The notes beneath the pieces were generated by a model that saw only the letters and a program-made list of their open reading frames with translations, was not told the DNA's origin and searched no databases. The position numbers and the translations under genes were made by a program. DNA of 64,000 nucleotides from a virus. Location of the stretch: IMG/VR virus record IMGVR_UViG_3300029362_000002. The stretch is one strand, 5' to 3'. Of the stretch, positions 31,301 through 57,407 are shown one piece after another (position 1 is the stretch's first letter; the number at the start of each line of letters is the position of its first letter).

Positions 31301-33594
31301 AGAATAAGCAGTACAAAGAAATGACCGGCTGGTATGTGAAAGGACAGGAAGGAAGTGAGCTGACTAAGAGCTTGCAGCTGGGAGCAAACACACTGAACTC
31401 TGCATATGCAGAAAAAATTCAGAGTAATAGACAGAGCCTTGCAGAAAATGCACAGTATTCTTTGGAATCAGCACAGAATATGCTGGCAAGCGGAGATACT
31501 TTCTCTGCGTCAAATGCACTGATGTATGGCTTCAATGAGCTTGGCAATGGAAAAACACTTGGATTCACTACAGACGCTACACAAAATGCTTTGAGTACGA
31601 TGTATGAAAGCATGAAACCAGACGTAACGCAGATGCAGGGATTGATTGATGATTATAGGGAAGCCGGAAAAGCGGTTCCACAGAGCTTGATGGATTCTTT
31701 CAACGAAGCCGTTGAAGTCGGAGCGGCGGCAGGTGATACTGCGGCTACATGGCAGAATTACGCTAATCAGATTTGGCAGAATGGAAGCGATGAATTAAAG
31801 GCATCACTTACAGACCCAAGCAATCCTATGTACGAGACTATCCGTTCTCAGCTTCCACCGGAATTGACAGAGGCAATAGATCGAGCGGCGGCAGAGACAA
31901 CTACAGAGGACGTAACCCTGGAAGGCTTAAAGGCATCGGTTGACGGTGACGTAGATATAGACAAGGACAAATGGGTGTCTGCTTTAAATGAAAAGTTGGG
32001 AGATTTGGCAACAACAGAGGAAGTTACCGCAGAGGGTGCGACTATCAAAGTTGAAGCTGGGGACTGCTTATGGGATATTGGCAATGCCCTTGGTGTTGAC
32101 TGGCGGACTATAGCAGAAGAGAACGGCATCGAAAGCCCATACGTTATTCATCCTGGAGATGAAATCAAGATTTCCATGGACACATTAACTGCCGAAGTAG
32201 ATGGAGATGCAGCACAATCAGCAATCGATCAGGCAATGTCTGCGTTGACAACTGAGGGCGCTGAATTTTCTGTTACTGCAGAAGGCGTTCAAGTGGATTT
32301 GTCCGATGTTCAAGTAGATTCAGAATCAGCAGCCGCTCAGATTGAAGCGGCACTTGGCATGGAATCCGGAACACTTGCGGCGAATGGAATCGAGGTGCAG
32401 ACAGGAGCAACGGTAACTGTGCCATCAGAATTGGTGCAGGTAGATGCATCTGGTCTGCAGGGAGCAACTCAGGAGGCGGTAAATCAGACAGATACAGAAC
32501 CAGTCGAAAAGGATACGTCCGCAAATGTTAATGTTACGGATACAACAACAAATGCTGAAGATGTACAGGGAAAAGTGGAAGAGGATCTGCAAGGAGCTGT
32601 CGGGGATGCTTCGGTCGAAGGAAGTGCGAATGTTACATTCTCTGATGTAACGGCTGATACGTCTGGAGTCTTGGAACAGGTAACAGCAGAACTTGAAAAC
32701 GCAGTAAGCAACGTGCCAGCCAATGGTCATGCCGAAATTACCCTGGATCAGACCAATAATTCATCAGAAATCTATTCTCTTGCGACAGGAGATGTAGAGT
32801 CTGCATTTTCGCAAACAATTCCAACAGATGGTCATGCAGATGTTACGCTTGATCAGACAAACAATGCAGACGCCATTTATTCAGAATGCGCCGGACAGGT
32901 ACAGAGTACATTTTCTCAGGGATTCTCAGCCTCAGCAGATGTCGCAGTTACACTGAACTGGCATATTACGAATCCATCAGCCAGCATATCCACATCAAGT
33001 AGCGGATCATCTGTATCAGCTACTATTGCAGGTCATGCAAATGGAGGCGAAGTTGGATTAAGCGGACCAGAATTGTCATGGGTGGGCGAGGAAGGCTTAG
33101 AGTATATCATTCCTACAGTGCCAGGACGCAGACAAAGAGGAATCAGTTTGTGGATGCAGGCAGGAAAAACTCTCGGCATGTTTGGCCCTGACGGAGAAAT
33201 CTCAGCTCATGCCAATGGTGGAGCGGTAGGTGCCGGAAGCAGTATTATTCCGGAGGATTCCATACAGTTGGCACAGGTTCCAGAAAAGTCAGACAACACA
33301 GTCTGGAGCATTATGGGACAAGCGGTGTCCAACGAGAGCAGTAAGGATGCGTCAGAAGGAGACGGAACGACCTTCACTGTGAATAATGCGCAGCAGAATG
33401 ATGGTGGAGGAAAAGTTGAAGTCAATGTAAATATGAATCCGGTCATTAAGATTGAAGGAAGTAACATGGATGAAGAAAAGATTTTCCAGGTTCTGCAGAA
33501 TAGAATCCGAGAGATGGCAGATGATCTTGGCGATGAGATTGCAGAACGCATGGGTAAAATCTTCAACAATATGCCGGCAGTACAGGAGGCGTAA
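28300..33594 (+). CDS. Tail tape measure protein with N-terminal 29-aa tandem repeats and an internal LysM-like domain
   Basis: 1764 aa, lying after the chaperone pair. About five 29-aa repeats (..AVENFDGxSGDAEIGADDGATPV..). LysM-like segment GDCLWDIGNALGVDWRTIAEENGIESPYVIHPGDEIKIS at about 32041-32175. Confidence 0.85.
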   Translation: MNDLAETVRIEIPVSVKDNTSAGVQSATRNMSNFERSMKRTEQQLNRLDRAHHVRVDADDQASGTINRLSSATESLDGTAADVEISANDTASQIVDQVEDQVSALDGSAADVDVGANDTATQVVNAASDAVENFDGQSGDAEIGADDGATPVIRAAEDAVENFDGSSGDAEIGADDGATPVVRAAQDAVENFDGMSGDAEIGADDQASPVIDSARDKAESWAGSVFNATIGIIDNVTAPIQSVLRAVSNPVVQGASLLGVSLGVADTVNTFKDFESMMSQVKAISGATGQDFEDLTAKAKEMGATTKFTATQSAEAFNYMAMAGWQPTQMIDGISGVMNLAAASGEDLGTTSDIVTDAITAFGLQAGDAGHFADVLAQASANANTNVGMLGESFKYVAPVAGAMNYTVEDTSLALGLMANASVKGSMAGTSLKTAIANMAAPTSSMAAAMEKYGISITDSEGNMKSLKGVMDNIRSSLGGLAEDEQTAAASTIFGKEAMAGMLAIVNASEDDYNKLSTAIYNSKDAAQDMADTMMDNLAGSMTLMQSAVEGVQNSFGKRLSPYLKTAVEGITAEMPAVEEALNNIMDVVDGKATSLKRSIKSMTGSQEWKDADFFGKVDIAWDKIIAEPFMSWAGSEGKSMLSQGIGKLFSSASAILPGGEKAGLTSWLSAGLIGVGASKLISGGKNVASALTPIGSAIKNIASAASEADTVGGFFTSLTGMTSKAGMIGLGAAAIVAAIAGIAVAVDNYNSKVLNDNLEEHFGKIKLSAKEAEEIASGILNQKYLTNVELALNEVKNADSLREAAQKALESNDVLEFKSRVGITLTPEEREDYTSNIKTFVDSKIEELQSRTFAAHIHVQTYIGGTKEGDTLAKNIEDWARADNLELTNLSNDLQTAVEKALTDGIIDVDEEQAISALQEKMNNITARWKESEAQAKWDWINQEYGNLNAADLESGSFTELLEAMRGQRQSAKESVQADVEQWYSELNSMESAGRITDAQNKQYKEMTGWYVKGQEGSELTKSLQLGANTLNSAYAEKIQSNRQSLAENAQYSLESAQNMLASGDTFSASNALMYGFNELGNGKTLGFTTDATQNALSTMYESMKPDVTQMQGLIDDYREAGKAVPQSLMDSFNEAVEVGAAAGDTAATWQNYANQIWQNGSDELKASLTDPSNPMYETIRSQLPPELTEAIDRAAAETTTEDVTLEGLKASVDGDVDIDKDKWVSALNEKLGDLATTEEVTAEGATIKVEAGDCLWDIGNALGVDWRTIAEENGIESPYVIHPGDEIKISMDTLTAEVDGDAAQSAIDQAMSALTTEGAEFSVTAEGVQVDLSDVQVDSESAAAQIEAALGMESGTLAANGIEVQTGATVTVPSELVQVDASGLQGATQEAVNQTDTEPVEKDTSANVNVTDTTTNAEDVQGKVEEDLQGAVGDASVEGSANVTFSDVTADTSGVLEQVTAELENAVSNVPANGHAEITLDQTNNSSEIYSLATGDVESAFSQTIPTDGHADVTLDQTNNADAIYSECAGQVQSTFSQGFSASADVAVTLNWHITNPSASISTSSSGSSVSATIAGHANGGEVGLSGPELSWVGEEGLEYIIPTVPGRRQRGISLWMQAGKTLGMFGPDGEISAHANGGAVGAGSSIIPEDSIQLAQVPEKSDNTVWSIMGQAVSNESSKDASEGDGTTFTVNNAQQNDGGGKVEVNVNMNPVIKIEGSNMDEEKIFQVLQNRIREMADDLGDEIAERMGKIFNNMPAVQEA

Positions 33595-39798: not shown

Positions 39799-40845
39799 AT
39801 GGCAAATTTTGATGATATGAAGCTGGCAGTCGAGGCACTGTCCGGAGGAAAGAACACAGTTTTACTGGATGATCGTGGGATGCCGTCCATCATGGTTGCG
39901 TTTCCAAAATTCAAAATCTCAGATGTAATTGCCGGAGGAAGTGAGAACATCCATCCGGCATTTTCCGTAGGTGGTGCGGAAAAAGATGTTGTGTATGTCT
40001 CCAAATTCCAGAACATTGTAATGAATGACAGAGCATATTCACTTCCGTTTAAGGACCCGAAGACCGGCGTGAACTTCGACCAGTCCGTCAACTACTGCAG
40101 AAACAAAGGAACTGGATGGGGCCTGATGCCGTATTCCTTATGGAGCGCTATCGCTCTGTGGTGTAGAAAGAACGGCACTATGCCAAGAGGTAACAATAAC
40201 TACGGCAGCGATCACGGATACCCACACGAGAAAGGAACACCGACTTACTACGATAGTAATAAGATCGCTCGTGTAGCAACCGGTTCTGGTCCTGATACAT
40301 GGAGCCACAACTGGATGCCGGACGGAATCTTCGATCTGAATGGAAATGTATGGGAGTGGTGCGCTGGCATGAGACTTGTTGATGGCGAAATCCAGATTAT
40401 TCCGTATGCGAACAGCATGATTTTGACAACCAGTATGGCGGCTGGCTCTACAGAATGGAAAGCAATCGCAGCTGACGGTTCGCTGGTGGCTCCTGGCACT
40501 GCTGGTACTTTGAAATGGGATGTTGTTTCTGGAAAGATTCAGCTTACCAAAGGAACTATCACGCCGAAAGACACAGGAAACTGGCTGCCATATAACAATA
40601 TGACACTTGGCGAAGGACTTACAGCAGCTCCGGAGTTGGCAAAAGCTCTCCTCCTGTATCCGGATGAGCCAAACGGAGATTACGGTGGAGATTACCATGG
40701 AGTAAATACTTCCGGAGAGCGTTTGCCGCGCTGCGGGGGCAGCTGGAACTACACTTCCCGTGCTGGCGTGTTCAACGTGCACCTGGTCAGCCCTCGGACT
40801 AGCGCCGACGGCTACCTCGGTTTCCGCTCCGCTTTTGTAAACTGA
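39799..40845 (+). CDS. DGR variable protein 1: fibre-tip receptor-binding candidate with an FGE-sulfatase/C-type-lectin-like fold
   Basis: The last 38 codons are VR1. GNVWEW and GFRS motifs typical of CLec-fold DGR targets. Follows the fibre genes. Confidence 0.85.
   Translation: MANFDDMKLAVEALSGGKNTVLLDDRGMPSIMVAFPKFKISDVIAGGSENIHPAFSVGGAEKDVVYVSKFQNIVMNDRAYSLPFKDPKTGVNFDQSVNYCRNKGTGWGLMPYSLWSAIALWCRKNGTMPRGNNNYGSDHGYPHEKGTPTYYDSNKIARVATGSGPDTWSHNWMPDGIFDLNGNVWEWCAGMRLVDGEIQIIPYANSMILTTSMAAGSTEWKAIAADGSLVAPGTAGTLKWDVVSGKIQLTKGTITPKDTGNWLPYNNMTLGEGLTAAPELAKALLLYPDEPNGDYGGDYHGVNTSGERLPRCGGSWNYTSRAGVFNVHLVSPRTSADGYLGFRSAFVN
40722..40835 (+). repeat. DGR variable region VR1
   Basis: A 114-nt match to TR 41371-41484. 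I counted 13 A-to-N differences plus one T-to-G at the 5' edge (40730). Confidence 0.9.
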
Positions 40846-40861
40846 GGACTGTAAACTGATT

Positions 40862-40879
40862 GCCGCCTGGGAAGGCGGC
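40862..40879 (+). promoter_or_regulatory. GC hairpin downstream of VR1 (DGR target-recognition hairpin candidate)
   Basis: GCCGCC-TGGGAA-GGCGGC lies 26 nt after the end of VR1 and follows two TGTAAACTGA direct repeats. Confidence 0.6.
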
Positions 40880-40903
40880 GTTTGTGGTGAAAGGAGAAAG
40901 AAT

Positions 40904-41335
40904 GTGGCAGAACAGAGATCCGACAATATGACAGCAGAGATGGAAGAGGAAGGACTAACGATATTACAGAAAATTGAAGATATGGAAGTGTACGCCCTCC
41001 CTCTCATCGAAAGATGGTCCATTGCACACCAGAAATTATTAGGTGACGATATAGCTCATTGTATGAACAGAATGTCGCAGCTGGCGTCGGCATTAACGGT
41101 TGCATACTACAAGAAAACTTCCATCAGCGAACTGGATGAAATGAACAAAGCACTCCAGTCTCACATCAGAGTAGCCTATCGCCTGGGATATTTGAAAGGA
41201 AAATCTTCCAGGAGTGAATGGGAAGGCCGTTCTGCAGAGATCGGAAGAATGATTGGAAAATATAAAGAATGGGTATACGGCGATCAAAAATCGTCACAAC
41301 AGAATAAAAGTGCAAAATCAAGGTACAGCCGGTAA
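40904..41335 (+). CDS. avd: DGR accessory variability determinant (Avd-like four-helix-bundle protein)
   Basis: 143-aa helical basic protein between target and TR. The C-terminal AEIGRMIGKYKEWV resembles the bAvd C-terminus. GTG start 6 nt after AGGAG. Confidence 0.65.
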   Translation: MAEQRSDNMTAEMEEEGLTILQKIEDMEVYALPLIERWSIAHQKLLGDDIAHCMNRMSQLASALTVAYYKKTSISELDEMNKALQSHIRVAYRLGYLKGKSSRSEWEGRSAEIGRMIGKYKEWVYGDQKSSQQNKSAKSRYSR

Positions 41336-41370
41336 TGATCCGGTTGTGCCGCCGGGAATAGGCTATTTCG

Positions 41371-41484
41371 TTTGCCGATCTGCGGGGGCAACTGGAACAA
41401 CACTTCCAATGCTGGCGTGTTCAACGTGAACCTGAACAACCCTCGGACTAACGCCAACGGCAACATCGGTTTCCGCTCCGCTTT
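41371..41484 (+). repeat. DGR template region (TR)
   Basis: Adenine-rich copy of VR1 and VR2. Read in the VR frame it gives runs of AAC/AAT codons (NWNNTSN..NVNLNN..NANGNI). The 3' 18 nt contain no adenine and are identical to both VRs. Confidence 0.9.
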
Positions 41485-41711
41485 ACTCTCATATGCCAGA
41501 ACCGGTCAGTTCAAGGACTGCCGGCAGTGCGAGAGATTTAAAGGAGTCTATTTCCGCTCCGACCGTGTGGAAGGAGAAAAATGGTTCTACTCGTGCGTGG
41601 GTAGAGCCGTCCCTGTGGAGACACACAAAGCAGGAGACACCTATGGAGGCCGCAAGTAGCGAGAGTGAAAGCTGCCACACATAGTCAAATACAAAGGAGC
41701 GATAACGCAAC

Positions 41712-42932
41712 ATGAAGATTAAGAATGTTTTTGATCTTATCTTCTCCATGGAAAATCTGTATGGAGCCTTAGAAGATGCTTCAGATCAAAGGAGATATAA
41801 CAAGGATGTAATGCTCTTCAATTTCAACGCCTGGGATAATTTGAAAGAGATTAGAGATTCTGTTTACGATGGGACGTATACCATAGACAAATATTATATT
41901 TTCTATGTGTATGAACCGAAGAAAAGGATGATAATGTCCATCAAATTTAAACACAGAGTTGTTCAATGGGCGATATACAGAGTTATCAATCCTATGCTGA
42001 TTAAGGGATATATCAAGGATTCTTACGGATGTATCCCGGAAAGAGGACCACTGACCGCTATGTTTCGGCTTAAATACTGGTTGGAACAGGTGAACCGTAA
42101 GGATGAGCAGTGGTATTACTTAAAACTAGATATAAGCAAATATTTTTACCGGATATCGCATCGGATACTAAAGAAAATACTTGCAAAGAAAATTAAGGAC
42201 CAGCGGTTGCTGAAATTGCTGGAATCAATTATAGATTGCAAACATACACCGTTTGGATTGCCGCCAGGACGTTCACCAGGGGAAGTACCTTTGGAAGAAC
42301 GTCTTTTTGATGTCGGAATGCCTATCGGAAATCTGCTATCACAGGTGTTTGCGAATGTGTATTTGGACGCACTGGATCAGTTCTGCAAGAGGGAATTGCA
42401 AATTCATTGTTATGTCCGATACATGGATGATGTGATTATTCTCAGTAGTAGCAAGGCACAGCTCCAGGAATGGAAAGTCAGAATTGCTTCTTTTCTGGAA
42501 ACGGAGTTGGAACTGCAGCTAAACAATAAAACTTGTATCCGGCCAATAAATCAAGGCATTGAATTTGTCGGATACAGGGTATGGCCTGACAAAGTGGTAC
42601 TCAGGAAGAAAACAACACTTCACATCAAGAGAGTTTTGAAGGCAAAGAAAGAAGCGTACAGAGTGAAGGAAATTTCTTTTAAGCAGGCAACAGACACACT
42701 GCAGAGTTACTTGGGAATGATGAAATATTGTGACTGCGATGCATTGAAGGAGAAGATTCTGGATGATTTTGTCCTGACGCACGCAGACATGAAACAAATT
42801 TACGAGGAAGGAGGGGATCGGGATGAGAACTACTATCGCAGAGGTGATGGATGGTCAGTCGAAGATTATCCAGTTACAGACGAAACTTATAGACCGGCTG
42901 GCACTTGCATTACTGCAGCATGGAACTATTGA
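41712..42932 (+). CDS. DGR reverse transcriptase
   Basis: YVRYMDDVII (YxDD box), KLDISKYF, and the DGR-type PIGNLLSQ motif. Lies 227 nt downstream of TR. Confidence 0.9.
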   Translation: MKIKNVFDLIFSMENLYGALEDASDQRRYNKDVMLFNFNAWDNLKEIRDSVYDGTYTIDKYYIFYVYEPKKRMIMSIKFKHRVVQWAIYRVINPMLIKGYIKDSYGCIPERGPLTAMFRLKYWLEQVNRKDEQWYYLKLDISKYFYRISHRILKKILAKKIKDQRLLKLLESIIDCKHTPFGLPPGRSPGEVPLEERLFDVGMPIGNLLSQVFANVYLDALDQFCKRELQIHCYVRYMDDVIILSSSKAQLQEWKVRIASFLETELELQLNNKTCIRPINQGIEFVGYRVWPDKVVLRKKTTLHIKRVLKAKKEAYRVKEISFKQATDTLQSYLGMMKYCDCDALKEKILDDFVLTHADMKQIYEEGGDRDENYYRRGDGWSVEDYPVTDETYRPAGTCITAAWNY

Positions 42933-42993
42933 GGATAAGGAACTGGCAATGATTAAAGAAGCAGCGGATCTGCAGAAAGGACTGGAAGAATGA
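42823..42993 (+). CDS. Hypothetical 56-aa helical protein overlapping the RT 3' end
   Basis: The ATG at 42823 lies about 10 nt after AGGAGG. Overlaps the non-conserved C-terminal tail of the RT by 110 nt. Confidence 0.3.
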   Translation: MRTTIAEVMDGQSKIIQLQTKLIDRLALALLQHGTIEDKELAMIKEAADLQKGLEE

Positions 42994-44294: not shown

Positions 44295-44447
44295 ATGGGG
44301 AATGTAGCAAAAATCGTAGTGGGGGTGCTTGCCATAGGCGGCACCTTTTTCATTCTGTTAATCAGAGAATTTGGGAAATTTATTGACGAAGTTTCACCCT
44401 ACAACTGGGGAGAAAGCGAGGTGCTGAAAGATGAGTATAAACGTTGA
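44295..44447 (+). CDS. Hypothetical 50-aa single-TM protein
   Basis: The ATG at 44295 follows AGAGGAG. Overlaps the lysin start. Confidence 0.35.
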   Translation: MGNVAKIVVGVLAIGGTFFILLIREFGKFIDEVSPYNWGESEVLKDEYKR

Positions 44448-46086
44448 GGCGGAGAAAAGAGCCTATAAGAAATTCAGACAGGCCGGCATGACTGCAGCTG
44501 GGGCTTGCGGCCTGATCGGAAACCTGGAAGCGGAGAGTGATGGTTTCTACACAAACCGGGTTGAATACCTGTGCCTTAAACGGCTGAAAGAAAAGGGAAA
44601 AGTCTATACCCATGCCACCTATACTGCAGCGATCGACAGCGGAAAGATCTCCTGCGAGGAGTTCTTACATCCGCTTTCCGGAAAACAGTACGGGTACGGA
44701 TTGGCCCAGTGGACAAGCCCTGGCAGAAAATCTGGTCTTTGGAATTTTGCCAAGCAGAGAGGCGTGTCCATTGCGGACGAAGATATGCAGCTGGATTTCT
44801 TACTGAAGGAACTGAGAGAAAGCTACAGCCCGGTTTTGGCTATTCTCAAATCAGCAACAACAATCCGGCAGGCATCCGATGTTGTTTTAAAGAAGTTTGA
44901 AATTCCGGCCAACACAGGGGAAAGCGTATGCGAAAGTAGAGCGGCAAGAGGCCAGAAATTCTATAACGATTATGCAAAGGAGGAAAAAATTGTGAGCGTG
45001 AAAATTAGTAATTGTGGACATGATGAAAATGGACGTTATGCAGGAGGCCAGGCGGGCGATCAGACTGGTACAGAGTATCAGATCATCAACTGGTACAACA
45101 GACCTTGGCTCTGTGTTTTACGATTTGAGGACCAGGAAGTAGCGGCACTGATTGCAGAGATGGCAACACAGGCCGCAAACAATAATATGATCGGCTATGA
45201 CCAGGGAACTGCAGGGAATAGTAATGATCGCTATACCTTCTGGGAGCAGCTGGCCGCAAATGGTTATGATCCATCAAAAATCAAAAAGCCATGCGAAACA
45301 GACTGCAGCCAGAGTACCGCAAGCATCGTGAAAGCAGTCGGATACCGTCTGAATAAGCCGAAGATGAAAGCAGTTAGCGTTTACTTGACTACATATAACA
45401 TGAGAAGCGCATTCAAGACAGCGGGAGCAAAGGTTCTCACCGATCAGAAATATCTGACAAGCGGTACATGCTTAAAGCCTGGAGATATCCTGCTGAATGA
45501 CAATCATCATGTGGCTATCGCAGTGAGTGGAGATGCCAGTTCCAATGCAACTCCGGCAAAGAAGAATTATTTGGAAAAGGGAGATACCGGATCAGAAGTA
45601 ACCGCGATGCAGAAAATGCTTATCAAAGTTGGATATTCTTGCGGAGCCGCAGGAGCTGACGGAGATTTCGGCTCTGACACTGATTCAGCTCTTCGCAAAT
45701 TTCAGAAAGACAATGGGCTGACGGTTGATGGACAGTATGGAACTAATTCCAAAGCCAAGCTGACCGCTCTGTACAACAAAAAGGTTGGAACCACCACATC
45801 CAACAAGAAAGACGTAACGACAGTAGCCAAAGAGGTGATTGCCGGTAAATGGGGTAGCGGAGATGAGCGGAAAAAGAAGCTGACTGCGGCCGGCTATAAT
45901 TATGACACTGTTCAGAAGAAGGTGAATGAGCTGCTGAAGACAAGAACAAAGAAATCCGTAGCTGAAGTTGCAAAGGAAGTCGTTTCCGGAAAATGGGGGA
46001 ACGGAGCCGATCGGAAGAAAAAACTGGAAGCAGCCGGTTACAATTATGCCGAAGTCCAGAAAGAAGTAAACAAGCTACTGAAATAA
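44431..46086 (+). CDS. Multidomain endolysin (lysozyme-like N-domain, second hydrolase-like domain, PG_binding_1-like domain, two CW_7 repeats)
   Basis: N-terminal CGLIGNLEAESDGF pattern. Central GHDENGRYAGGQAGDQTGTEY. GDTGSEVTAMQKML...DGDFG PG-binding motif. Two copies of VAKEVIxGKWGxGxxRKKKLxAAGYNYxxVQKxVNxLL. Confidence 0.8.
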   Translation: MSINVEAEKRAYKKFRQAGMTAAGACGLIGNLEAESDGFYTNRVEYLCLKRLKEKGKVYTHATYTAAIDSGKISCEEFLHPLSGKQYGYGLAQWTSPGRKSGLWNFAKQRGVSIADEDMQLDFLLKELRESYSPVLAILKSATTIRQASDVVLKKFEIPANTGESVCESRAARGQKFYNDYAKEEKIVSVKISNCGHDENGRYAGGQAGDQTGTEYQIINWYNRPWLCVLRFEDQEVAALIAEMATQAANNNMIGYDQGTAGNSNDRYTFWEQLAANGYDPSKIKKPCETDCSQSTASIVKAVGYRLNKPKMKAVSVYLTTYNMRSAFKTAGAKVLTDQKYLTSGTCLKPGDILLNDNHHVAIAVSGDASSNATPAKKNYLEKGDTGSEVTAMQKMLIKVGYSCGAAGADGDFGSDTDSALRKFQKDNGLTVDGQYGTNSKAKLTALYNKKVGTTTSNKKDVTTVAKEVIAGKWGSGDERKKKLTAAGYNYDTVQKKVNELLKTRTKKSVAEVAKEVVSGKWGNGADRKKKLEAAGYNYAEVQKEVNKLLK

Positions 46087-46742: not shown

Positions 46743-46974
46743 CTCAGTTGAGGATAAGATACAAATGCGCAAAGCCTTATAAATAAAGGAAAATCTTCAT
46801 ATTATAATAAAAAACGTGTGACATTGTCCCATCAATGTCACGAAACCGTCACGTCACTATTACTCTATATCTATTTCTGTATCTAAATCTTTTTCTATCT
46901 TTTTCTTTTATTCTCACTATTAGTTATTGAATGTTGCAGTTGCGAAAATAATTTGCATAAATAGAGCAAAACTA

Positions 46975-47003
46975 TTGACAAATACGCAAGTGCGAGTTAT
47001 AAT
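46975..47003 (+). promoter_or_regulatory. Early promoter P1 (TTGACA-17-TATAAT) with a CGCAAGTGCGAG 12-mer in the spacer
   Basis: Consensus -35 and -10 elements. Lies inside a 61-bp perfect repeat (46961-47021 = 52976-53036). Confidence 0.7.
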
Positions 47004-47112
47004 ATATACATAATCAAACAAAACACAAGAACCAAACAGGTGGGTGTTATTTTTTTACCCAAATGGTTCGCAAATGCGAGATTGATTAAATAATCTGAAA
47101 GGAGAACACCAG

Positions 47113-47516: not shown

Positions 47517-47665
47517 TGAAGAAAGCAAAAGATATGATCGAGAAATTGGATTTTAATGGCTGCATAGAATTGTTCAATCAGCTTCCAAGTGGTCATCCGA
47601 TGATCGACCTGGTATTTGACAGAATGGAAAGCCTTGATCCAGAAAGATTTGAAGAGTGGCTGTGA
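47504..47665 (+). CDS. Hypothetical 53-aa protein
   Basis: The ATG lies 7 nt after GGAGG and overlaps the upstream ORF. Confidence 0.4.
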   Translation: METLMKKAKDMIEKLDFNGCIELFNQLPSGHPMIDLVFDRMESLDPERFEEWL

Positions 47666-47683
47666 GAGAGTGAGGGAGGAAAA

Positions 47684-47881
47684 ATGAAGTTAAATGACAT
47701 TGTAATGGCATCTACGCAAGATACAAAAATCAGAGTGGTTGTAAAACTGTACGGAACGAGCTTCCGCACAGAACATTTTCCAGAATACTTCTTAGAAAGT
47801 GAAGAGATGGATGAACTGATGGACAGAGAGGTTGTGGATATCAGAGTAGTTGATAATCTTTTGGAAGCCACATTGAGATAG
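47684..47881 (+). CDS. Hypothetical protein
   Basis: GAGGGAGGAAAA RBS. Confidence 0.45.
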   Translation: MKLNDIVMASTQDTKIRVVVKLYGTSFRTEHFPEYFLESEEMDELMDREVVDIRVVDNLLEATLR

Positions 47882-47902
47882 GCAAGCAGGAGGACATAAA
47901 CA

Positions 47903-48100
47903 TTGGCAGTGCGAAGAACTTACTACAGGGATCGATGGAATGAAAAGAAGGTATGGGAAGTTGTAAAACTGGTTGGTGGCTATTATCTCCGGCAGTATAT
48001 CAGCGGTCAGCAGGTAGGAAGAGGGATGAAGACATCGAAGAAATTTATCAAGAGCATAGGCGTTTTTGAATTTGAAGAAGTAGGAGGAATTACAGGATGA
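47903..48100 (+). CDS. Hypothetical protein
   Basis: TTG start after GCAGGAGG. Confidence 0.4.
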   Translation: MAVRRTYYRDRWNEKKVWEVVKLVGGYYLRQYISGQQVGRGMKTSKKFIKSIGVFEFEEVGGITG

Positions 48101-48477
48101 AATGGGATGTTAAACACGACAGAGCAAAGAAAGTAATTGATCGTTTCCTGGATAACGCAGGATACTGGCAGGAGTCAGAAGACCTGGTTACAGGCCTGAC
48201 GGATGAAGAGAAGGAACTGGTAAATGCGGAAGTTGAGCTGATGATCGCATCCATCAGAAAGCGTTACAAATTGCAGGAGCGCTTGCCAGAGCAGGTAGCT
48301 GAAGCAGAAAAGCCAGCAGAGAAAGCAGTAGAGGAACCGATAGAAGAACCGGTTAAAAAGCCAAGAGCAAGAAAGCCGAAGACAGAGAATGCGACAGAAG
48401 AGAAGCCGGCAGCAAAGAGAACAAGAACCAAGAAAGCGGAAAAGGAGAAAGCTAAAGACCATGGGGAAAATGATTAA
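48097..48477 (+). CDS. Hypothetical protein with a Lys/Glu/Pro-rich tail
   Basis: 4-nt overlap with the upstream gene. Confidence 0.45.
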   Translation: MKWDVKHDRAKKVIDRFLDNAGYWQESEDLVTGLTDEEKELVNAEVELMIASIRKRYKLQERLPEQVAEAEKPAEKAVEEPIEEPVKKPRARKPKTENATEEKPAAKRTRTKKAEKEKAKDHGEND

Positions 48478-48766
48478 TTGGAGCATGAAGGACACTAATG
48501 GTTGCGTACAGAGAGGGCAGATGTTCCTCTCTCAGCTTCCGAAAATTCTTCTGAGTTTTGAGAATAGCGCAGCGGAAACACTGAGAAGAACCGGAGCCGA
48601 CCACGTACTTTATGCGGTTAAAATTTACAATACAGCAGACGAATTGACAGCAGTGCAGTTCTATATGAATCCGATGTCAGATGAGGAATTTTCCAAAGTG
48701 GCCGGAAAAGGACGAGGAACTATGATATATGCGTTGCATAGCAGAAAGGTAAAGGTGGCGGGATGA
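48461..48766 (+). CDS. Hypothetical protein (start uncertain)
   Basis: In-frame ATG inside ORF-track 48389..48766, beyond most of the overlap with the upstream gene. Confidence 0.4.
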   Translation: MGKMINWSMKDTNGCVQRGQMFLSQLPKILLSFENSAAETLRRTGADHVLYAVKIYNTADELTAVQFYMNPMSDEEFSKVAGKGRGTMIYALHSRKVKVAG

Positions 48767-49029
48767 AAAAGAAAATCGAAGAGCTGTTTCGACTGGCAAT
48801 GAAAGCCCAGGAGAAAACAAGCGCATACGTGTCATTCGAGACATCAAATCACGGATGGGGATGTGTGGTAATGATTATGGATGATGGCTTCGAGGTAAAA
48901 CATGGGTATGATGGTTGGTACGAAATGGATATGTTTTATTCGGATGAAAGATCAGAGGAACAGTATCAGAAAGCAAAAGAACATTTAATCAGATTACTCA
49001 GAAAAAAGAGAAAGGTGGCAACAGCATGA
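48763..49029 (+). CDS. Hypothetical protein
   Basis: 4-nt overlap. Confidence 0.45.
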   Translation: MKKKIEELFRLAMKAQEKTSAYVSFETSNHGWGCVVMIMDDGFEVKHGYDGWYEMDMFYSDERSEEQYQKAKEHLIRLLRKKRKVATA

Positions 49030-49418
49030 ATACGGTAGCAAAGCTGACACAGAAGCAGATTGAAAAACTTGCAGTGGAGATCCGGACGTTTCTCCTGGAA
49101 CACGATATGTGGGTGGACACTCAGATTTATTTCAACGGAAAATGCTTTGACACACACGACAAGGAGACAGGCGAGTTCTATTACAATGATCCGGAACATC
49201 TGGTTGTGAGAGAAAACGAGGACCCAAGAAGATATTTTGAGAATGTGGCAGAAGACCATATCCTCAGTATGGCTTTTGAAGGCAGTGTGTGCCATATGCT
49301 TTGGTATGGGACCAATCCTGGAATCAAGAAAAAATTTGATAGAATTTTTGAAAAAAGAGGAATTTATTACGAGTTTGGAGACCACTGGAACTTCACCTGT
49401 TATTACATAGGAGAGTGA
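49026..49418 (+). CDS. Hypothetical protein
   Basis: 4-nt overlap. Confidence 0.45.
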   Translation: MNTVAKLTQKQIEKLAVEIRTFLLEHDMWVDTQIYFNGKCFDTHDKETGEFYYNDPEHLVVRENEDPRRYFENVAEDHILSMAFEGSVCHMLWYGTNPGIKKKFDRIFEKRGIYYEFGDHWNFTCYYIGE

Positions 49419-49425
49419 GCAAAAT

Positions 49426-49620
49426 ATGGGACACAGAAAAATGTCAGCCTACGGAGAAAGAGAACACAATGGCAGATATGTATTGGATGATTATGAATTT
49501 TCACGGAATCATACCAAGGCAGAGACAATCAGAAGATGGAGAAGAGACTTAAAAAAGAAAGCAAGATCCCGCAGGAGAAAAGAAATCTACAAAGCGATGC
49601 AGAATTGCAGAGAGGAGTAA
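49426..49620 (+). CDS. Hypothetical basic protein
   Basis: Tight packing. Confidence 0.4.
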   Translation: MGHRKMSAYGEREHNGRYVLDDYEFSRNHTKAETIRRWRRDLKKKARSRRRKEIYKAMQNCREE

Positions 49621-49621
49621 A

Positions 49622-50074
49622 ATGGCATATTTGAATATTCAGAAGGCAGAGTTTAACAGAGCAACGGAGAATTTAATCGAGATCGCTTGGAAGTACGAAA
49701 GCCTGAAGGTAGAGTATGATTTCTTAACAAATACAGATAGCATGAGCTGGAAGCATCTTTTCGTTGCATGGGCGAATGAGTTCGAGGAATTGCACGGCTC
49801 AAAGAATTGGAATGAAATCGACGAGGACTATTACGAAACCATTGAAAGATTCGCAGAAGAAAAGATCATGGGTTGGGCTGGAAAGAAAAAGAGAATAGTA
49901 GTAGGCCGACACATGGAAGGAATCACGCTGAATCCGCTGGAATGGCTGTTGAGCAATGATGGAGCGGAAATAATGACATTTAATAGCGTTGACGAGGCAA
50001 AAGGTTTTCTCAAAGGAAAAGGATACCAGGAAGAGGACATGGAGTTTCTTCGATTTGTAGAGGAGTGGATGTGA
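49622..50074 (+). CDS. Hypothetical protein
   Basis: Tight packing. Confidence 0.45.
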   Translation: MAYLNIQKAEFNRATENLIEIAWKYESLKVEYDFLTNTDSMSWKHLFVAWANEFEELHGSKNWNEIDEDYYETIERFAEEKIMGWAGKKKRIVVGRHMEGITLNPLEWLLSNDGAEIMTFNSVDEAKGFLKGKGYQEEDMEFLRFVEEWM

Positions 50075-50075
50075 C

Positions 50076-50312
50076 ATGGTTGGATTACTGAACGATAGAT
50101 GTATCCGGGTTTATTCAGAAATGAATGAGTGGATGGACTGTATTTTTATTGTAAGTGCAGAAGATGCGGAAAGGGCTGAAAAGGTTCTGCAGGAAGCATG
50201 GGACAGCTACTGGGAAGATGGAGATGGCTGGTGCTACGGAAATTATCTGTCGGACAAGATGATTAAAGCCGGTATTTCATTTGACGTATATTATGCGGAT
50301 TCGGAGGAATAA
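50076..50312 (+). CDS. Hypothetical acidic protein
   Basis: Tight packing. Confidence 0.45.
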   Translation: MVGLLNDRCIRVYSEMNEWMDCIFIVSAEDAERAEKVLQEAWDSYWEDGDGWCYGNYLSDKMIKAGISFDVYYADSEE

Positions 50313-50316
50313 AGGT

Positions 50317-50703
50317 ATGCAGAGTAAGAAAGTGCTTCTGATCGGAAGTTACTCACCGGAAAATGAAGGCAAGCCAGAGATAATCGACCGAGATTATTAC
50401 CGGCAAGGATGGATTTTCAAGGATGAAGATGCTTTTCAGAACAGGCCAGACGATGTTTGCTATATTCCGGAATTGTCGGACGAAAAGTATACGAGGAACG
50501 ACATACTGAAAATACTTGCCGGAGACGAAGAACTGGCGAAGACAATGTTCGAGGAACTGGATTGGCAGCATCCAGAAAGTCTGTTGGAAGACTGGAAAGC
50601 AAATGGCGAAATTGCTTGGTGCCCGCATTGTGTAGGATATGTTCAGACCTATGGTGAGGAGATTGAAAAGTGCCCGGTATGTGGCACAGAATTGGAGGAT
50701 TGA
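50317..50703 (+). CDS. Hypothetical protein with a C-terminal zinc ribbon (CPHC..CPVC)
   Basis: The ATG at 50317 follows CGGAGGAATAAAGGT. Confidence 0.45.
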   Translation: MQSKKVLLIGSYSPENEGKPEIIDRDYYRQGWIFKDEDAFQNRPDDVCYIPELSDEKYTRNDILKILAGDEELAKTMFEELDWQHPESLLEDWKANGEIAWCPHCVGYVQTYGEEIEKCPVCGTELED

Positions 50704-50704
50704 G

Positions 50705-51109
50705 ATGGAAGAAAAGAAAATTGTTGAGACGTTGTTTGTGAGAAGATCCGTCAACGTGTCGGAACAGGATATAGACGATATTCTTTGCACTGCATTTGAA
50801 GGAGGAATCACTTATTGGTGCGACAGCGTAAGAGTCGTTGGAAATTACCTTGGAAAATATGCAAGCGATCAAATCAGCAGAGGCGGAAAACTGAAATTTC
50901 ATGTGGAAGAACCGTTCGACAATGAAGAAACAGAATGGTACGAAATGGATCAGGAAAAGTTTCTGCACGGATTACAGGAGTGGCTGAACTGTTCAAGAAA
51001 CAGCAGCTCTTGTTTATACGAGAACAAGATTGACTGCAGTCAGATTGACGCACCGATGGCGGACGAAATCATCCAGTACACTTTGTTTGATGAAATTATC
51101 TTTGACTAA
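50705..51109 (+). CDS. Hypothetical protein
   Basis: The ATG at 50705 follows TTGGAGGATTGAG. Confidence 0.45.
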   Translation: MEEKKIVETLFVRRSVNVSEQDIDDILCTAFEGGITYWCDSVRVVGNYLGKYASDQISRGGKLKFHVEEPFDNEETEWYEMDQEKFLHGLQEWLNCSRNSSSCLYENKIDCSQIDAPMADEIIQYTLFDEIIFD

Positions 51110-51123
51110 AGAAAGGAGAAAAA

Positions 51124-56220: not shown

Positions 56221-57363
56221 ATGGCAAAAGCAAAGTTTATGAATGGTGAGTTTTCAGCAAAGTTTAAAGGAAAGAGAAGATTCGTTGCAGAGCAGATGGA
56301 AGCAATTAAGGATTATGCGGCAAGAGATGATATGCAGATCAATATTTGTCCGGTAATCCAGGAGAGACCTTCTGGAAAAAAGAATACTGAGGAGCAGATC
56401 ACACCAACCCATTTCATCAGCGGAAACCTGGAACACGCAGTAGTGGCAATTTACGACAATGCCGGCATCCCGTCATTCATGCACAGATTCCGCAAGGTGA
56501 CAAATAAGGAGCTGTTCGGTGGAAGCGATAAAACAAATGCAGCGTTTATCATTGGAGATGAAGAATACGATGAAATTTACATTTCTGTCTATGAGAACTG
56601 CGAAATTAACGGAAAGCCTTATAGCCTGCCAATGCAGAAGCCATGGACAGGAATTACCAATGATGAGGCGGCGAGAGCTTGTTTTTCAAAGGGAGAGGGA
56701 TGGCATCTTATGACAAGAGCTGAATGGGGATTACTTGCGAACCTCAGCTTGAAAAATGGTACTTTGCCACATGGCAACACGAACTATGGAAAGTACCATG
56801 CAAACCCGGAAGAACATGGAGAGTCAGCAGGAGAATCCGGAAAGACCAAAACCGGATCAGGACCGGCAACATGGACCCACGATCATACATTGGAAGGCGT
56901 TCACGATCTGTCCGGAAACGTATGGGAAATGGTAAGAGGCCTGAGAATAAAAGACGGACAGCTGGAGATGGTAAAGAATAACGATGCAGCATTGGATATT
57001 GATCTTACCCTTGAAGGAGATAACTGGGAACCGGTAAGAGATGATTCCGGAAAGTCTATTAGAGTAAGCGTTTCCGATGGCGGTATCAAATTCCTTGCTG
57101 AAAGTGATCACGAAGAGGGATACGATGGATGTAGATGGGAAGATGTTAATATTGATTGCGAGAGCGAAACACTGAAAGAGCTGGCTCTGTATCCTGGAGA
57201 GCCGGAAGCCTACTGCTATATTGATAGCACTGAGGGAGAATATTTGCCGATCTGCGGGGGCAGCTGGTACAGCGCTTCCAGTGCTGGCGTGTTCCGCGTG
57301 CACCTGAGCAACCCTCGGACTAACGCCCGCTGGCTACCTCGGTTTCCGCTCCGCTTATTTTAG
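56221..57363 (+). CDS. DGR variable protein 2 (remote target, full-length paralogue of target 1; C-terminus frameshifted by a 1-nt insertion in VR2)
   Basis: Homologous to 39799..40845 over most of its length (GIPSFM.., GWHLMTRAEW, GNVWEMV). The 3' end matches TR. Ends ...NARWLPRFPLRLF instead of a ..GYLGFRSA..-type end. Confidence 0.8.
   Translation: MAKAKFMNGEFSAKFKGKRRFVAEQMEAIKDYAARDDMQINICPVIQERPSGKKNTEEQITPTHFISGNLEHAVVAIYDNAGIPSFMHRFRKVTNKELFGGSDKTNAAFIIGDEEYDEIYISVYENCEINGKPYSLPMQKPWTGITNDEAARACFSKGEGWHLMTRAEWGLLANLSLKNGTLPHGNTNYGKYHANPEEHGESAGESGKTKTGSGPATWTHDHTLEGVHDLSGNVWEMVRGLRIKDGQLEMVKNNDAALDIDLTLEGDNWEPVRDDSGKSIRVSVSDGGIKFLAESDHEEGYDGCRWEDVNIDCESETLKELALYPGEPEAYCYIDSTEGEYLPICGGSWYSASSAGVFRVHLSNPRTNARWLPRFPLRLF
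57243..57357 (+). repeat. DGR variable region VR2
   Basis: Matches TR 41371-41483. I counted 13 A-to-N differences plus one extra T at 57331. Confidence 0.85.
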
Positions 57364-57389
57364 AAAACTGAAAACTGAGTAACTGATAT

Positions 57390-57407
57390 GGCGGCTGGAA
57401 AGCCGCC
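57390..57407 (+). promoter_or_regulatory. GC hairpin downstream of VR2
   Basis: GGCGGC-TGGAAA-GCCGCC lies 33 nt after the end of VR2 and follows AAACTGA AAACTGA G TAACTGA repeats. Confidence 0.6.

What the first reader, a model, noticed from the sequence alone, without database searches (positions are those of the whole stretch)
39799..42932. Complete DGR at the tail-fibre locus: variable protein, Avd, TR, RT
Seen in the sequence:
- A 114-nt template region (41371-41484) aligns without gaps to the last 38 codons of CDS 39799..40845 (VR1, 40722-40835).
- By my base-by-base comparison, all 13 internal differences fall on TR adenines. Examples: AAC to TAC, CAC, GTC, AGC or GAC; AAT to CGT.
- One non-adenine difference (T to G at 40730) sits at the 5' boundary.
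- Read in the VR frame, the TR is a run of Asn codons (NWNNTSN, NVNLNN, NANGNI). This is the classic design for maximum diversity.
- The 3' 18 nt contain no adenine and are invariant, as expected for an IMH-like element.
- The RT (41712..42932) carries YMDD and the DGR-type IGNLLSQ motif.
- A 143-aa helical basic protein between target and TR looks like Avd.

Established knowledge: this layout matches the Bordetella phage BPP-1 paradigm (mtd-avd-TR-brt). The target follows the fibre genes of a PBSX-like myovirus tail, so it is most likely the receptor-binding tip.
Basis: partly seen in the sequence, partly recalled or inferred. Interest (0 to 1): 0.75.

Follow-up and report, generated by a model that had tools for sequence, protein, structure and literature searches.

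The report
Two-target phage DGR in Blautia
It is a well-documented example of a known kind of system, not a new one.

Summary
TR 41369-41484 and VR1 40720-40835 align without gaps, and 13 of 14 mismatches fall on TR adenines (P=2e-9).

The DGR interpretation is supported:
- The RT's best solved relative is a 328-aa reverse transcriptase that I take to be Bordetella phage bRT (E 1e-38).
- The 143-aa protein matches Avd models, though below their curated cut-offs.
- Target 1 is a full-length homologue of the DGR variable protein TaqVP (E 5e-62).

Public contigs show activity. Among 43 distinct VRs, 49% of A-templated cells are substituted against 0.4% of the others. 25 of 31 TR-flanked copies are identical; the other six differ only at A positions. 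Phage genomes that differ at about 20 of 21,221 bases carry 13-16 of those differences inside VR1.

New findings:
- A second target (56221-57382; VR2 57243-57356) lies in the prophage's non-structural right arm. In this window it is frameshifted by one inserted T.
- The TR-RT spacer is an Rfam RT-14-like RNA.
- A covarying 12-bp duplex bridges the TR, like the BPP-1 "cPRT Stop".
- Both VRs are followed by 7-nt ACTG repeats and a GC hairpin with a GRNA loop.

The host is Blautia (the prophage is present in the B. fusiformis isolate). This is a known kind of system, and non-adjacent phage targets are already documented.

The parts
39799..40845 (+). Target gene 1 (348 aa), a C-type-lectin-fold variable protein that sits directly after the baseplate genes.
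   Evidence: ORF. PDB 5VF4 (TaqVP) E 4.6e-62 over residues 5-347. phrog_2889 E 3e-132. FGE-sulfatase Pfam E 1e-4, below the cut-off.
40720..40835 (+). VR1: the variable region, covering the last 38 codons of target 1.
   Evidence: 13 of 14 mismatches to the TR are at A. 23 distinct VR1 sequences occur in public contigs and vary at the A-templated positions. VR1 holds 13-16 of the roughly 20 differences between near-identical 21-kb loci.
40840..40859 (+). Three tandem 7-nt units containing ACTG (at 40841, 40848, 40855), between VR1 and its hairpin. The first unit overlaps the stop codon.
   Evidence: Read from the sequence. The array is conserved after the VRs of 18 relatives and absent after their TRs: 3.84 against 0.63 motifs per 50 nt.
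40862..40879 (+). GC-rich hairpin or cruciform after VR1: stem GCCGCCT/AGGCGGC, loop GGGA.
   Evidence: It fits the published DGR target hairpin: 7-10 bp GC stem, GRNA loop, 4-34 bp from the VR (PMC3240598).
40904..41335 (+). avd-like accessory gene (143 aa, GTG start).
   Evidence: phrog_3206 'Avd protein of DGR' 1.9e-19. PF22296 bAvd 3.4e-9, 37.6 bits against a cut-off of 40. NF033474 1.6e-11, 44 bits against 80. The AF2 model has four helices (pLDDT 68), and the Foldseek search is inconclusive, with bAvd 4DWL at rank 5 and E 0.29.
41353..41364 (+). 5' strand (CGGGAAUAGGCU) of a long-range RNA duplex. It lies just upstream of the TR, after the avd stop codon.
   Evidence: It pairs with 41545-41556. 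Across 18 sequences, 99.5% of cells are paired, 9 of 12 pairs change on both sides, and 0 of 500 shuffles reach the observed score.
41369..41484 (+). TR: the template repeat, with 26 adenines.
   Evidence: 25 of 31 TR-flanked public copies are identical. The other six differ only at A positions and look like VR/TR chimeras; several TR-bearing contigs have about 1-3x coverage, but I did not map the variants to contigs.
41486..41608 (+). [quoted passage not shown] It includes stem CUCUC 41486-90 : GAGAG 41531-35, an internal hairpin, and the 3' strand of the long-range duplex (41545-41556).
   Evidence: RF02921 RT-14 at 46.0 bits (gathering score 48.1), E 2e-5, full model. The spacer of relative L089 scores 57.9 bits, above the gathering score. 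Covariation is shown.
41712..42932 (+). DGR reverse transcriptase (406 aa; IGNLLSQ at residue 205, YMDD at 237).
   Evidence: PDB 8ub7_A (328-aa reverse transcriptase) E 9.9e-39, against 1e-14 or worse for group II intron RTs. RVT_1 1.3e-20. phrog_1423 1e-129. Among relatives at 41-75% identity, 35 of 38 loci have an A-biased TR/VR pair in the same layout.
56221..57382 (+). Target gene 2, a paralogue of target 1 (36% identity) with about 70 extra N-terminal residues. It lies 15.9 kb from the TR in the non-structural right arm. In this window it reads 56221-57363 because of a +1 frameshift. The intact form is 386 aa.
   Evidence: phrog_2889 5e-96. The intact 386-aa gene is present in L007 and L009.
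57243..57356 (+). VR2: the second variable region. It carries one inserted T at 57331, opposite TR AAC 41456-58.
   Evidence: With the inserted T removed, all 13 internal mismatches to the TR are at A. 20 distinct intact VR2 sequences occur in public contigs, 50% substituted at A cells and 6 of 1740 at other cells.
57367..57385 (+). Three tandem ACTG units (at 57367, 57374, 57382) after VR2.
57390..57407 (+). GC-rich hairpin after VR2: stem GGCGGCT/AGCCGCC, loop GGAA. The stem sequence is flipped relative to the VR1 hairpin, but the structure is kept.

Best explanation
This is a functional, phage-borne diversity-generating retroelement with one template and two targets.

Proposed mechanism:
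1. A transcript running from just upstream of the TR (about 41353) through the TR and the RT-14-like spacer folds so that the spacer pairs with the segment 5' of the TR. This brackets the template.
2. The RT (41712-42932), together with the Avd-like protein (40904-41335), copies the TR into cDNA and misincorporates opposite the 26 template adenines.
3. The cDNA replaces the homologous 3' ends of two paralogous C-type-lectin-fold genes. One is target 1, at the end of the contractile-tail/baseplate module. The other is target 2, 15.9 kb downstream near the prophage's right end.
4. Each target is marked by the A-free 19-nt block shared with the TR, then three 7-nt ACTG units, then a GC hairpin with a GRNA tetraloop.
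5. The 5' junction of replacement is variable.

What is shown: the anatomy, the A-specific diversification of both VRs in natural populations with a TR that does not vary, the homologies, and the RNA covariation.

What is inferred by analogy with Bordetella phage BPP-1: cis-priming by the spacer, the requirement for Avd, the role of the hairpin and repeats in target recognition, and target 1 as the receptor-binding protein.
For: - TR/VR1: 13 of 14 mismatches at A, P=2.3e-9.
- VR2: all internal mismatches at A once the inserted T is removed.
- Population: 550 of 1118 A-templated cells are substituted, against 16 of 3741 other cells, across 23 VR1 and 20 VR2 sequences. 25 of 31 TR-flanked copies are identical.
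- Four loci that differ from the window at only 19-22 positions (three of 21,221 nt, one of 15,278 nt) carry 13-16 of those differences inside VR1.
- RT: best PDB hit is 8ub7_A at 1e-38, and it has the IGNLLSQ motif.
- Avd profiles.
- Target 1 is homologous to TaqVP, 5VF4.
- The spacer hits Rfam RT-14.
- The long-range duplex has 9 of 12 covarying pairs. It parallels the avd:Sp duplex of BPP-1 (bioRxiv 10.1101/2023.10.23.563531).
- The hairpins fit the published consensus.
- The same layout is found in 35 of 38 relatives and in the isolated Clostridium phage Saumur.
- The cultured isolate Blautia fusiformis CLA-AA-H217 carries VR1, TR and VR2, with both VRs diversified.
Against: - No direct evidence of activity in the particular genome the window comes from. 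Its VR2 carries a frameshift that removes the conserved C-terminal GFRSA strand.
- Avd scores below the curated Pfam and NCBIfam cut-offs, and the fold search was inconclusive.
- A non-A change (T>G at TR 41379) recurs in 13 of 43 VRs.
- Six TR-flanked copies show A-position differences. I read these as VR/TR assembly chimeras but cannot prove it.
- Virion location of either target is untested.
Confidence: 0.93

Rival explanations
1. Relic DGR. The cassette is intact in sequence but no longer homes, and the VR differences are old.
For: The window's VR2 is frameshifted. One public contig (L005) lacks avd through a VR/TR fusion.
Against: Phage genomes that are 99.9% identical over 21 kb differ mainly inside VR1. 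All 43 VRs sampled are different, while 25 of 31 TR-flanked copies are identical. The RT, Avd and spacer RNA are conserved, and the exact RT protein occurs in 3264 blocks of the protein collection.
Confidence: 0.03
2. The VR variation comes from recombination or gene conversion among the three repeat copies, or from diversifying point mutation, without reverse transcription.
For: VR/TR recombination does seem to occur: L005 has a 649-bp collapse, and some TR-flanked copies look chimeric.
Against: Conversion from the TR could only restore adenines. It cannot create the 550 A>N substitutions. Ordinary mutation would not spare 3725 of 3741 non-A cells.
Confidence: 0.02
3. Target 1 is not the receptor-binding tail tip. 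It is diversified for another purpose, for example as a non-virion protein or a decoration protein.
For: No N-terminal fibre or baseplate-attachment domain is detectable, and the whole protein aligns to the stand-alone TaqVP. The four ORFs before it have no known function. Its paralogue, target 2, lies in a non-structural module.
Against: It occupies the position of the fibre gene at the end of a PBSX-like baseplate operon and just before the lysis genes. The synteny is identical in the isolated phage Saumur. There is a weak C-terminal hit to a PHROG 'tail protein' family, 5e-13. Viral DGR targets are mostly tail proteins (PMC8144416).
Confidence: 0.25
4. The RT belongs to a group II intron, a retron or a defence RT, and its proximity to the repeat is coincidental.
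For: The only NCBIfam hits are to group II, Drt and retron models.
Against: All those hits are far below their cut-offs (for example 112 against 300 bits). The closest solved structure, by 24 orders of magnitude, is 8ub7_A. The RT has the DGR-type [I/V/L]GxxxSQ motif. Relatives consistently sit next to A-biased TR/VR pairs. There is no intron RNA, and no Rfam intron or retron hit.
Confidence: 0.01

Closest known systems
Bordetella phage BPP-1 DGR (mtd-avd-TR-brt)
   Same: - Same gene order: target, avd, TR, spacer, RT.
- A-specific TR-to-VR transfer.
- C-type-lectin-fold target at the tail locus.
- A GC-rich, A-free block at the VR/TR 3' end.
- A GC hairpin with a GRNA loop after the VR.
- A structured spacer RNA that pairs with a segment upstream of the TR.

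   Different: - The RT aligns to 8ub7_A only in two local stretches (E 1e-38) and is 78 aa longer (406 against 328 aa).
- The spacer matches Rfam RT-14, whereas RT-10 is the BPP-1 motif.
- The 5' strand of the long-range duplex lies after the avd stop codon, not inside avd.
- There are two targets, one of them 16 kb away.
- The hairpin is 26-33 nt from the VR, with a 7-nt ACTG repeat array in between.
- The host is a Gram-positive Blautia.
DGRs of Lachnospiraceae and Oscillospiraceae gut phages, such as Clostridium phage Saumur (ON453901) and Faecalibacterium phage FP_Lagaffe
   Same: The synteny in Saumur is identical: baseplate genes, four small ORFs, a roughly 355-aa target, Avd, TR region, RT, then lysis genes. 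The RT is 51% identical to Saumur's and 44% to Lagaffe's.
   Different: No deposited phage has an RT more than 60% identical, and there is no nucleotide-level match in the 50,697 phage records. Whether those phages have a second, non-adjacent target was not examined.
Thermus aquaticus DGR variable protein TaqVP (PDB 5VF4)
   Same: Full-length homology to target 1 (E 4.6e-62), including the C-terminal variable region and the G-x-R-x-A-F ending.
   Different: The organism and context differ. Target 2 adds about 70 N-terminal residues.
Phage-associated DGRs with non-adjacent targets (Wu et al. 2018, PMC5758913)
   Same: One target is adjacent to the cassette and one lies elsewhere in the same prophage, within 50 kb. 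That paper also documents indels opposite AAC, frameshifts in VRs, and a variable 5' boundary.
   Different: Here the second target sits in a defined non-structural module (Rha-like, ParB-like, DUF4313, DUF3560) 3.4 kb from the prophage end, and its diversification is documented in 20 natural variants.
Rfam RF02921 RT-14 RNA (Weinberg et al. 2017, PMC5737381)
   Same: [quoted passage not shown] A relative's spacer passes the gathering score.
   Different: The window copy scores 46.0 bits, below the gathering score of 48.1. The paper assigned only RT-10 to a DGR and speculated about the others.

Membership tests
Diversity-generating retroelement (DGR) | A TR/VR repeat pair whose differences are confined to TR adenines. 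| tested here: met
   VR1 has 13 of 14 mismatches at A (P 2.3e-9). VR2 has 13 of 13 internal mismatches at A. Across public contigs, 49% of A cells are substituted against 0.4% of other cells.
Diversity-generating retroelement (DGR) | A reverse transcriptase of the DGR clade, with motif 4 [I/V/L]GxxxSQ. | tested here: met
   The best PDB hit is 8ub7_A at 9.9e-39, against 1e-14 or worse for group II RTs. IGNLLSQ is at residue 205 and YMDD at 237. 35 of 38 relatives have TR/VR pairs. No formal phylogeny was built.
Diversity-generating retroelement (DGR) | The VR lies at the 3' end of a gene for a C-type-lectin-fold (or Ig-like) ligand-binding protein. | tested here: met
   Target 1 is homologous to TaqVP, 5VF4, at 4.6e-62. 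Target 2 is a paralogue at 1e-64.
Diversity-generating retroelement (DGR) | Target-site marks: an A-free GC-rich IMH-like 3' block and a downstream GC hairpin with a 4-nt GRNA loop. | tested here: met
   A 19-nt A-free block is identical in the TR and both VRs. The hairpins have loops GGGA and GGAA and lie 26 and 33 nt after the VRs. The TR flank has no equivalent GC-stem/GRNA-loop hairpin. Their function was not tested.
Diversity-generating retroelement (DGR) | Ongoing mutagenic homing (activity). | tested here: met
   This was tested at population level only. Near-identical phage genomes differ mostly within VR1, and there are 43 distinct VRs against an essentially invariant TR. It was not tested for the window's own genome.
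Avd (DGR accessory variability determinant) | Sequence membership in the Avd/bAvd family. | tested here: inconclusive
   The E-values are significant (PHROG 1.9e-19, NCBIfam 1.6e-11, Pfam 3.4e-9), but the scores are below the curated cut-offs: 44 against 80 bits and 37.6 against 40 bits.
Avd (DGR accessory variability determinant) | Four-helix-bundle protomer that forms a basic pentameric barrel. | tested here: inconclusive
   The single-sequence AF2 model has four helices with pLDDT 68. Foldseek gives no hit with E<0.06, and bAvd 4DWL is at rank 5 with TM 0.60. The pI is 8.6. The oligomeric state cannot be tested with these tools.
Rfam RF02921 RT-14 RNA | A score at or above the family's gathering threshold. 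| tested here: not met
   The window scores 46.0 bits against 48.1 (E 2e-5) with a full-length alignment. The homologous spacer of relative L089 scores 57.9 bits. The window copy is therefore best called RT-14-like, a borderline member.
DGR RNA with a template-bracketing ('cPRT Stop'-type) duplex | Pairing between a segment upstream of the TR and the spacer downstream of the TR. | tested here: met
   41353-41364 pairs with 41545-41556 (12 bp). Across 18 sequences 99.5% of cells are paired, 9 of 12 pairs change on both sides, and 0 of 500 shuffles reach the score. Slid controls give 58% paired or less. The upstream anchor was chosen among a few GGGA sites by best pairing, which is a small selection bias.
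Phage tail fibre or receptor-binding protein | A virion component at the tail tip that determines host range. | not testable with these tools
   Only positional evidence exists: target 1 sits at the end of a PBSX-like baseplate operon, with a weak PHROG tail-protein hit.

The most novel reading that the evidence does not exclude
The non-adjacent target 2 may not be a virion protein. It could be an early-expressed or lysogen-expressed soluble binding protein, for example a counter-defence or host-interaction factor. In that reading it is kept hypervariable in trans by the tail-locus DGR. It is encoded in the Rha/ParB-type accessory arm, downstream of a consensus promoter that carries an operator-like inverted repeat.

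A linked idea concerns the tag found after every VR of this clade: 3-5 tandem 7-nt ACTG units followed by a GRNA hairpin. This may be a so-far undescribed, portable target-recognition element read in single-stranded form, possibly by the multimeric Avd/RT-RNA particle.
Probability: 0.2. Interest if true: 0.6.

Novelty: new member of a known kind. Interest (0 to 1): 0.35.

Why it matters
DGRs are the only known natural system of targeted protein hypermutation in prokaryotes, and gut phages are their richest reservoir. This element adds no new principle, but it is an unusually clean natural example.
- Its exact RT protein occurs in 3264 blocks of the public protein collection, most matching contigs are human-gut metagenome assemblies, and it is present in a cultured Blautia isolate.
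- One template serves two paralogous targets in different functional modules.
- Both targets are demonstrably diversified in nature.
- Its RNA and DNA recognition elements are defined by covariation and conservation: the bracketing duplex, the RT-14-like spacer, the ACTG heptads and the GRNA hairpins.

Together these give a tractable Gram-positive system for two open questions: how DGR cDNA finds and enters its target, and what non-structural phage DGR targets do.

Tried and rejected
- A megablast of the cassette against 50,697 deposited phages found nothing.
- The whole-window Rfam scan at gathering thresholds found nothing. RT-14 appeared only in the E-value scan.
- The inverted repeat between RT motif 4 (42319-42350) and 53195-53226 suggested a second RT. 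There is no RT ORF there and complementarity is only 75%, so it was rejected as chance.
- Folding the TR-spacer region as a single sequence was not significant (z -1.35). Structure became visible only with relatives.
- RNAalifold proposed a helix between the TR 3' GCUCC (41475-79) and the spacer GGAGU (41543-47). It shows only one-sided changes and overlaps the strongly covarying long-range duplex, so it was not adopted.
- The Foldseek search with the Avd model was inconclusive.
- An exact-protein look-up of the 309-aa neighbour (53826-54755) found nothing. Look-ups with the ParB-like and Rha-like neighbours found only two contigs each.
- I considered that the 46-60.8 kb arm might be a separate satellite that borrows the DGR. 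I rejected this because eight independent contigs end their homology at the same point (about 60,775-60,777), one of them continues into host genes, and VR2 is found about as often as VR1.
- I considered that the integrase at 61005-62153 belongs to this phage. The evidence places it in a neighbouring element.

Full report
**Observation**

The repeat is real. TR 41369-41484 and VR1 40720-40835 align without gaps at an offset of 649 nt. There are 14 mismatches. Thirteen fall on TR adenines and one is a T>G at 40730, next to an A>C at 40729. The TR has 26 A in 116 nt, so the chance of at least 13 of 14 mismatches landing on A is 2.3e-9.

The last 19 nt (41466-41484) contain no A and are identical in both copies. 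In the VR frame the TR carries 11 Asn codons, 2 ATC and 2 ACT. None can become a stop codon. Excluding the TTA codon that straddles the end of the homology, which the script counted, I recompute about 2e15 protein variants.

**A third copy and a second target**

A whole-window repeat search found a third copy at 57241-57356. It lies at the 3' end of ORF 56221-57363, a paralogue of target 1. The two proteins share 36% identity (E 1e-64), and the paralogue has about 70 extra N-terminal residues.

Against the TR, this VR2 differs only at adenines once a single inserted T at 57331 is removed. That T lies opposite the TR codon AAC 41456-58. The insertion shifts the frame of the last 11 codons in this window. 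In other contigs the gene is intact at 386 aa. Indels opposite AAC and frameshifts in VRs have been described for DGRs (PMC5758913). Because the 3' A-free block is intact, a later homing event could repair the frameshift. This last point is inference.

**Proteins**

- RT. Its best solved relative is 8ub7_A, a 328-aa 'Reverse transcriptase' (E 9.9e-39). I take this to be Bordetella phage bRT, on memory and chain length. The next hits are group II intron RTs at 1e-14 or worse. NCBIfam gives only sub-threshold group II, Drt and retron hits.
- Avd. The 143-aa protein matches Avd models with significant E-values: PHROG 1.9e-19, NCBIfam 1.6e-11 and Pfam bAvd 3.4e-9. The two curated models score below their cut-offs. 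A single-sequence AF2 model has four helices at pLDDT 68, and the Foldseek search was inconclusive, with bAvd 4DWL at rank 5.
- Target 1. It aligns over its full length to 5VF4 (E 4.6e-62). 5VF4 is TaqVP, the C-type-lectin-fold variable protein of the Thermus aquaticus DGR.

**Context**

Upstream of the cassette is a PBSX-like contractile tail module: sheath, a 1764-aa tape measure, LysM, YQBQ, sheath initiator, Baseplate_J and Mu gp48-like genes. Four small ORFs of unknown function follow, and then target 1. Downstream are small membrane-protein ORFs and an endolysin at 44431-46086. The left 10 kb of the window encodes RecT, an exonuclease and a replisome organiser.

Between the lysis genes and about 60,777 lies a 14.6-kb accessory arm of small genes. 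It includes an HTH protein, DUF4313, DUF3560, a Rha-like protein, target 2, a ParB-like protein and an MmcB-like protein. Eight independent public contigs lose homology to the window at 60,755-60,778, seven of them at 60,775-60,778. One of these (L007) continues into host Zip and MMPL genes. VR2 is therefore inside the same prophage, about 3.4 kb from its right end. The integrase at 61005-62153 and the cI-like repressor at 63070-63693 belong to a neighbouring element.

The host is Blautia. The isolate B. fusiformis CLA-AA-H217 carries VR1, TR and VR2, with both VRs diversified and VR2 intact.

**Population test**

The exact RT protein is listed in 3264 blocks of the public protein collection. 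From exact-protein look-ups and pattern scans of viral, genome and metagenome collections I recovered three sets of copies:
- 23 distinct VR1 sequences,
- 20 distinct intact VR2 sequences,
- 31 TR-flanked copies.

Of 1118 A-templated cells, 550 (49%) are substituted. Of 3741 other cells, 16 (0.4%) are substituted, and 14 of those are at a single position. All 26 adenines vary in VR1 and 25 of 26 vary in VR2. Twenty-five of the 31 TR-flanked copies are identical. The other six differ only at A positions and look like VR/TR chimeras. Several TR-bearing contigs have about 1-3x coverage, but I did not map the variants to contigs.

The sharpest result comes from near-identical genomes:

| Locus | Length compared (nt) | Differences from the window | Of these, inside VR1 |
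|---|---|---|---|
| L002 | 21,221 | 22 | 16 |
| L003 | 21,221 | 20 | 13 |
| L004 | 21,221 | 20 | 15 |
| L006 | 15,278 | 19 | 16 |

This is the signature of recent, repeated mutagenic homing at both targets.

**The non-A change at the 5' boundary**

T>G at TR 41379 occurs in 13 of 43 VRs, in both targets, and always as AT>CG. The 10-nt block just downstream (41380-89) has no A, so it is always identical between cDNA and VR.

My reading is that 5' integration sometimes resolves in this block and leaves an older CG state in place. That fits the homology-governed, variable 5' boundary described for DGRs (PMC5758913; PMC3240598). Selection for Arg at this codon is an alternative. The excess of 'CT' at the same site is unexplained.

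**RNA**

Relatives with 41-75% identical RTs were collected from IMG/VR. Thirty-five of 38 loci show the same layout: a VR, then 580-720 nt holding avd, then the TR, then a spacer of about 190-300 nt, then the RT, with A-biased mismatches.

The window's spacer (41486-41608) matches Rfam RT-14 over the full model at 46.0 bits, against a gathering score of 48.1 (E 2e-5). The homologous spacer of relative L089 scores 57.9 bits. Weinberg et al. placed RT-10 in the BPP-1 TR-RT spacer and speculated that other RT motifs serve DGRs (PMC5737381). This locus supports that idea for RT-14.

Covariation supports the following pairings:
- Stem CUCUC 41486-90 with GAGAG 41531-35, and a downstream CUCC/GGAG hairpin.
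- A 12-bp long-range duplex between 41353-41364, just 5' of the TR, and 41545-41556 in the spacer. Across 18 sequences 99.5% of cells are paired, 9 of 12 pairs change on both sides, 0 of 500 shuffles reach the score, and slid controls give 58% paired or less.

The upstream anchor for the long-range duplex was chosen among a few GGGA sites by best pairing, which introduces a small bias. This duplex brackets the template in the same way as the avd:Sp 'cPRT Stop' duplex seen by cryo-EM in BPP-1 (bioRxiv 10.1101/2023.10.23.563531). The priming nucleotide could not be identified here.

**DNA target marks**

Both VRs are followed by a GC-rich hairpin with a four-base loop:
- After VR1: 40862-40879, stem GCCGCCT/AGGCGGC, loop GGGA.
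- After VR2: 57390-57407, stem GGCGGCT/AGCCGCC, loop GGAA.

The two stems are flipped in sequence but keep the structure. This matches the published consensus of a 7-10 bp GC stem and a GRNA loop 4-34 bp from the VR (PMC3240598).

Between each VR and its hairpin are three tandem 7-nt units containing ACTG. The same array of 2-6 units (most often 4), at a 7-nt period, is present after the VRs of 18 relatives. It is absent after their TRs: 3.84 against 0.63 motifs per 50 nt. I found no description of it in the searchable literature. Its role is unknown.

**Comparison and novelty**

The system works like BPP-1 and meets every DGR criterion I could test. Avd is the weakest, because it scores below the curated cut-offs.

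The closest deposited phages are Clostridium phage Saumur, with 51% RT identity and identical synteny, and Faecalibacterium phage Lagaffe at 44%. No deposited phage matches at the nucleotide level. Non-adjacent targets within the same prophage are documented as common (PMC5758913), so the second target is not a new principle.

I class this as a new member of a known kind. Its value is as a well-resolved, culturable, two-target example. The open questions are what target 2 does and what the heptad array does.

Noticed in passing
window 57331 (VR2): A single inserted T opposite TR codon AAC 41456-58 frameshifts the last 11 codons of target 2 in this window. All 20 other VR2 copies with this flank are in frame. 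One further copy, with a slightly different 3' flank, has a 1-nt deletion in the G5 run. The insertion could be a real by-product of the DGR or an assembly artefact from a mixed population.
   Followed up: partly
L005 (ena:ERZ27231663:k119_134766), equivalent to window 40836-41484: In this contig exactly 649 bp are missing: avd plus one repeat copy. That leaves a VR/TR hybrid and a 403-aa fused target ORF. It is either a homologous VR-TR deletion that kills the DGR or an assembler collapse of the repeat.
   Followed up: partly
window 46964-47011, 52979-53026, 63495-63542: Two identical 48-nt copies of a perfect sigma-70 promoter (TTGACA-17-TATAAT) carry a CGCA-N2-TGCG inverted repeat between the hexamers. 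Each heads a block of the accessory arm. A 73% similar copy sits beside the cI-like repressor of the neighbouring element. This suggests shared repressor control.
   Followed up: partly
window about 60,777 to 64,000: The prophage's right boundary is at about 60,775-60,777. Beyond it lies a different integrated element: a tyrosine integrase (61005-62153, minus strand), two unknown minus-strand ORFs and a cI-like HTH repressor (63070-63693, minus strand). This points to tandem mobile elements at one site.
   Followed up: partly
window 47,600-55,000 compared with L012, L013 and L020: The accessory arm between the lysis genes and the target-2 module is modular. Some IMG/VR relatives lack 47.8-55.0 kb or 47.6-51.9 kb. 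As a result the TR-VR2 distance ranges from about 8.5 kb to 15.9 kb.
   Followed up: partly
window 41470-41480 and 41551-41561: The 11-mer TTTCCGCTCCG occurs at the 3' end of the TR and again in the spacer. The spacer copy forms part of the covarying duplex with 41353-64, so the TR copy could compete for the same partner. This may be an alternative RNA conformation.
   Followed up: no
window 42823-42993: A 56-aa ORF with a helical-looking sequence overlaps the last 110 nt of the RT gene in another frame. The RT's last 20 or so residues lie outside its PHROG match (residues 1-384). The true RT stop, or an overlapping small gene, is unresolved.
   Followed up: no
window 10140-10209: A tRNA-Gly (anticodon TCC) is encoded inside the phage. 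It lies between the early genes and ORF 10853-12271, whose position suggests a terminase, although its only family match (phrog_7858) has no assigned function.
   Followed up: no
window 28526-28745 (within the tape-measure gene 28300-33594): Tandem 87-nt (29-codon) repeats lie inside the 1764-aa tape-measure protein. The same protein also carries a LysM or endolysin-like segment near residues 1232-1301.
   Followed up: no
L098:6864-7207: A tmRNA gene (173 bits) lies about 2.3 kb downstream of the end of the RT match in a distant relative's contig. This may mark its integration site.
   Followed up: no
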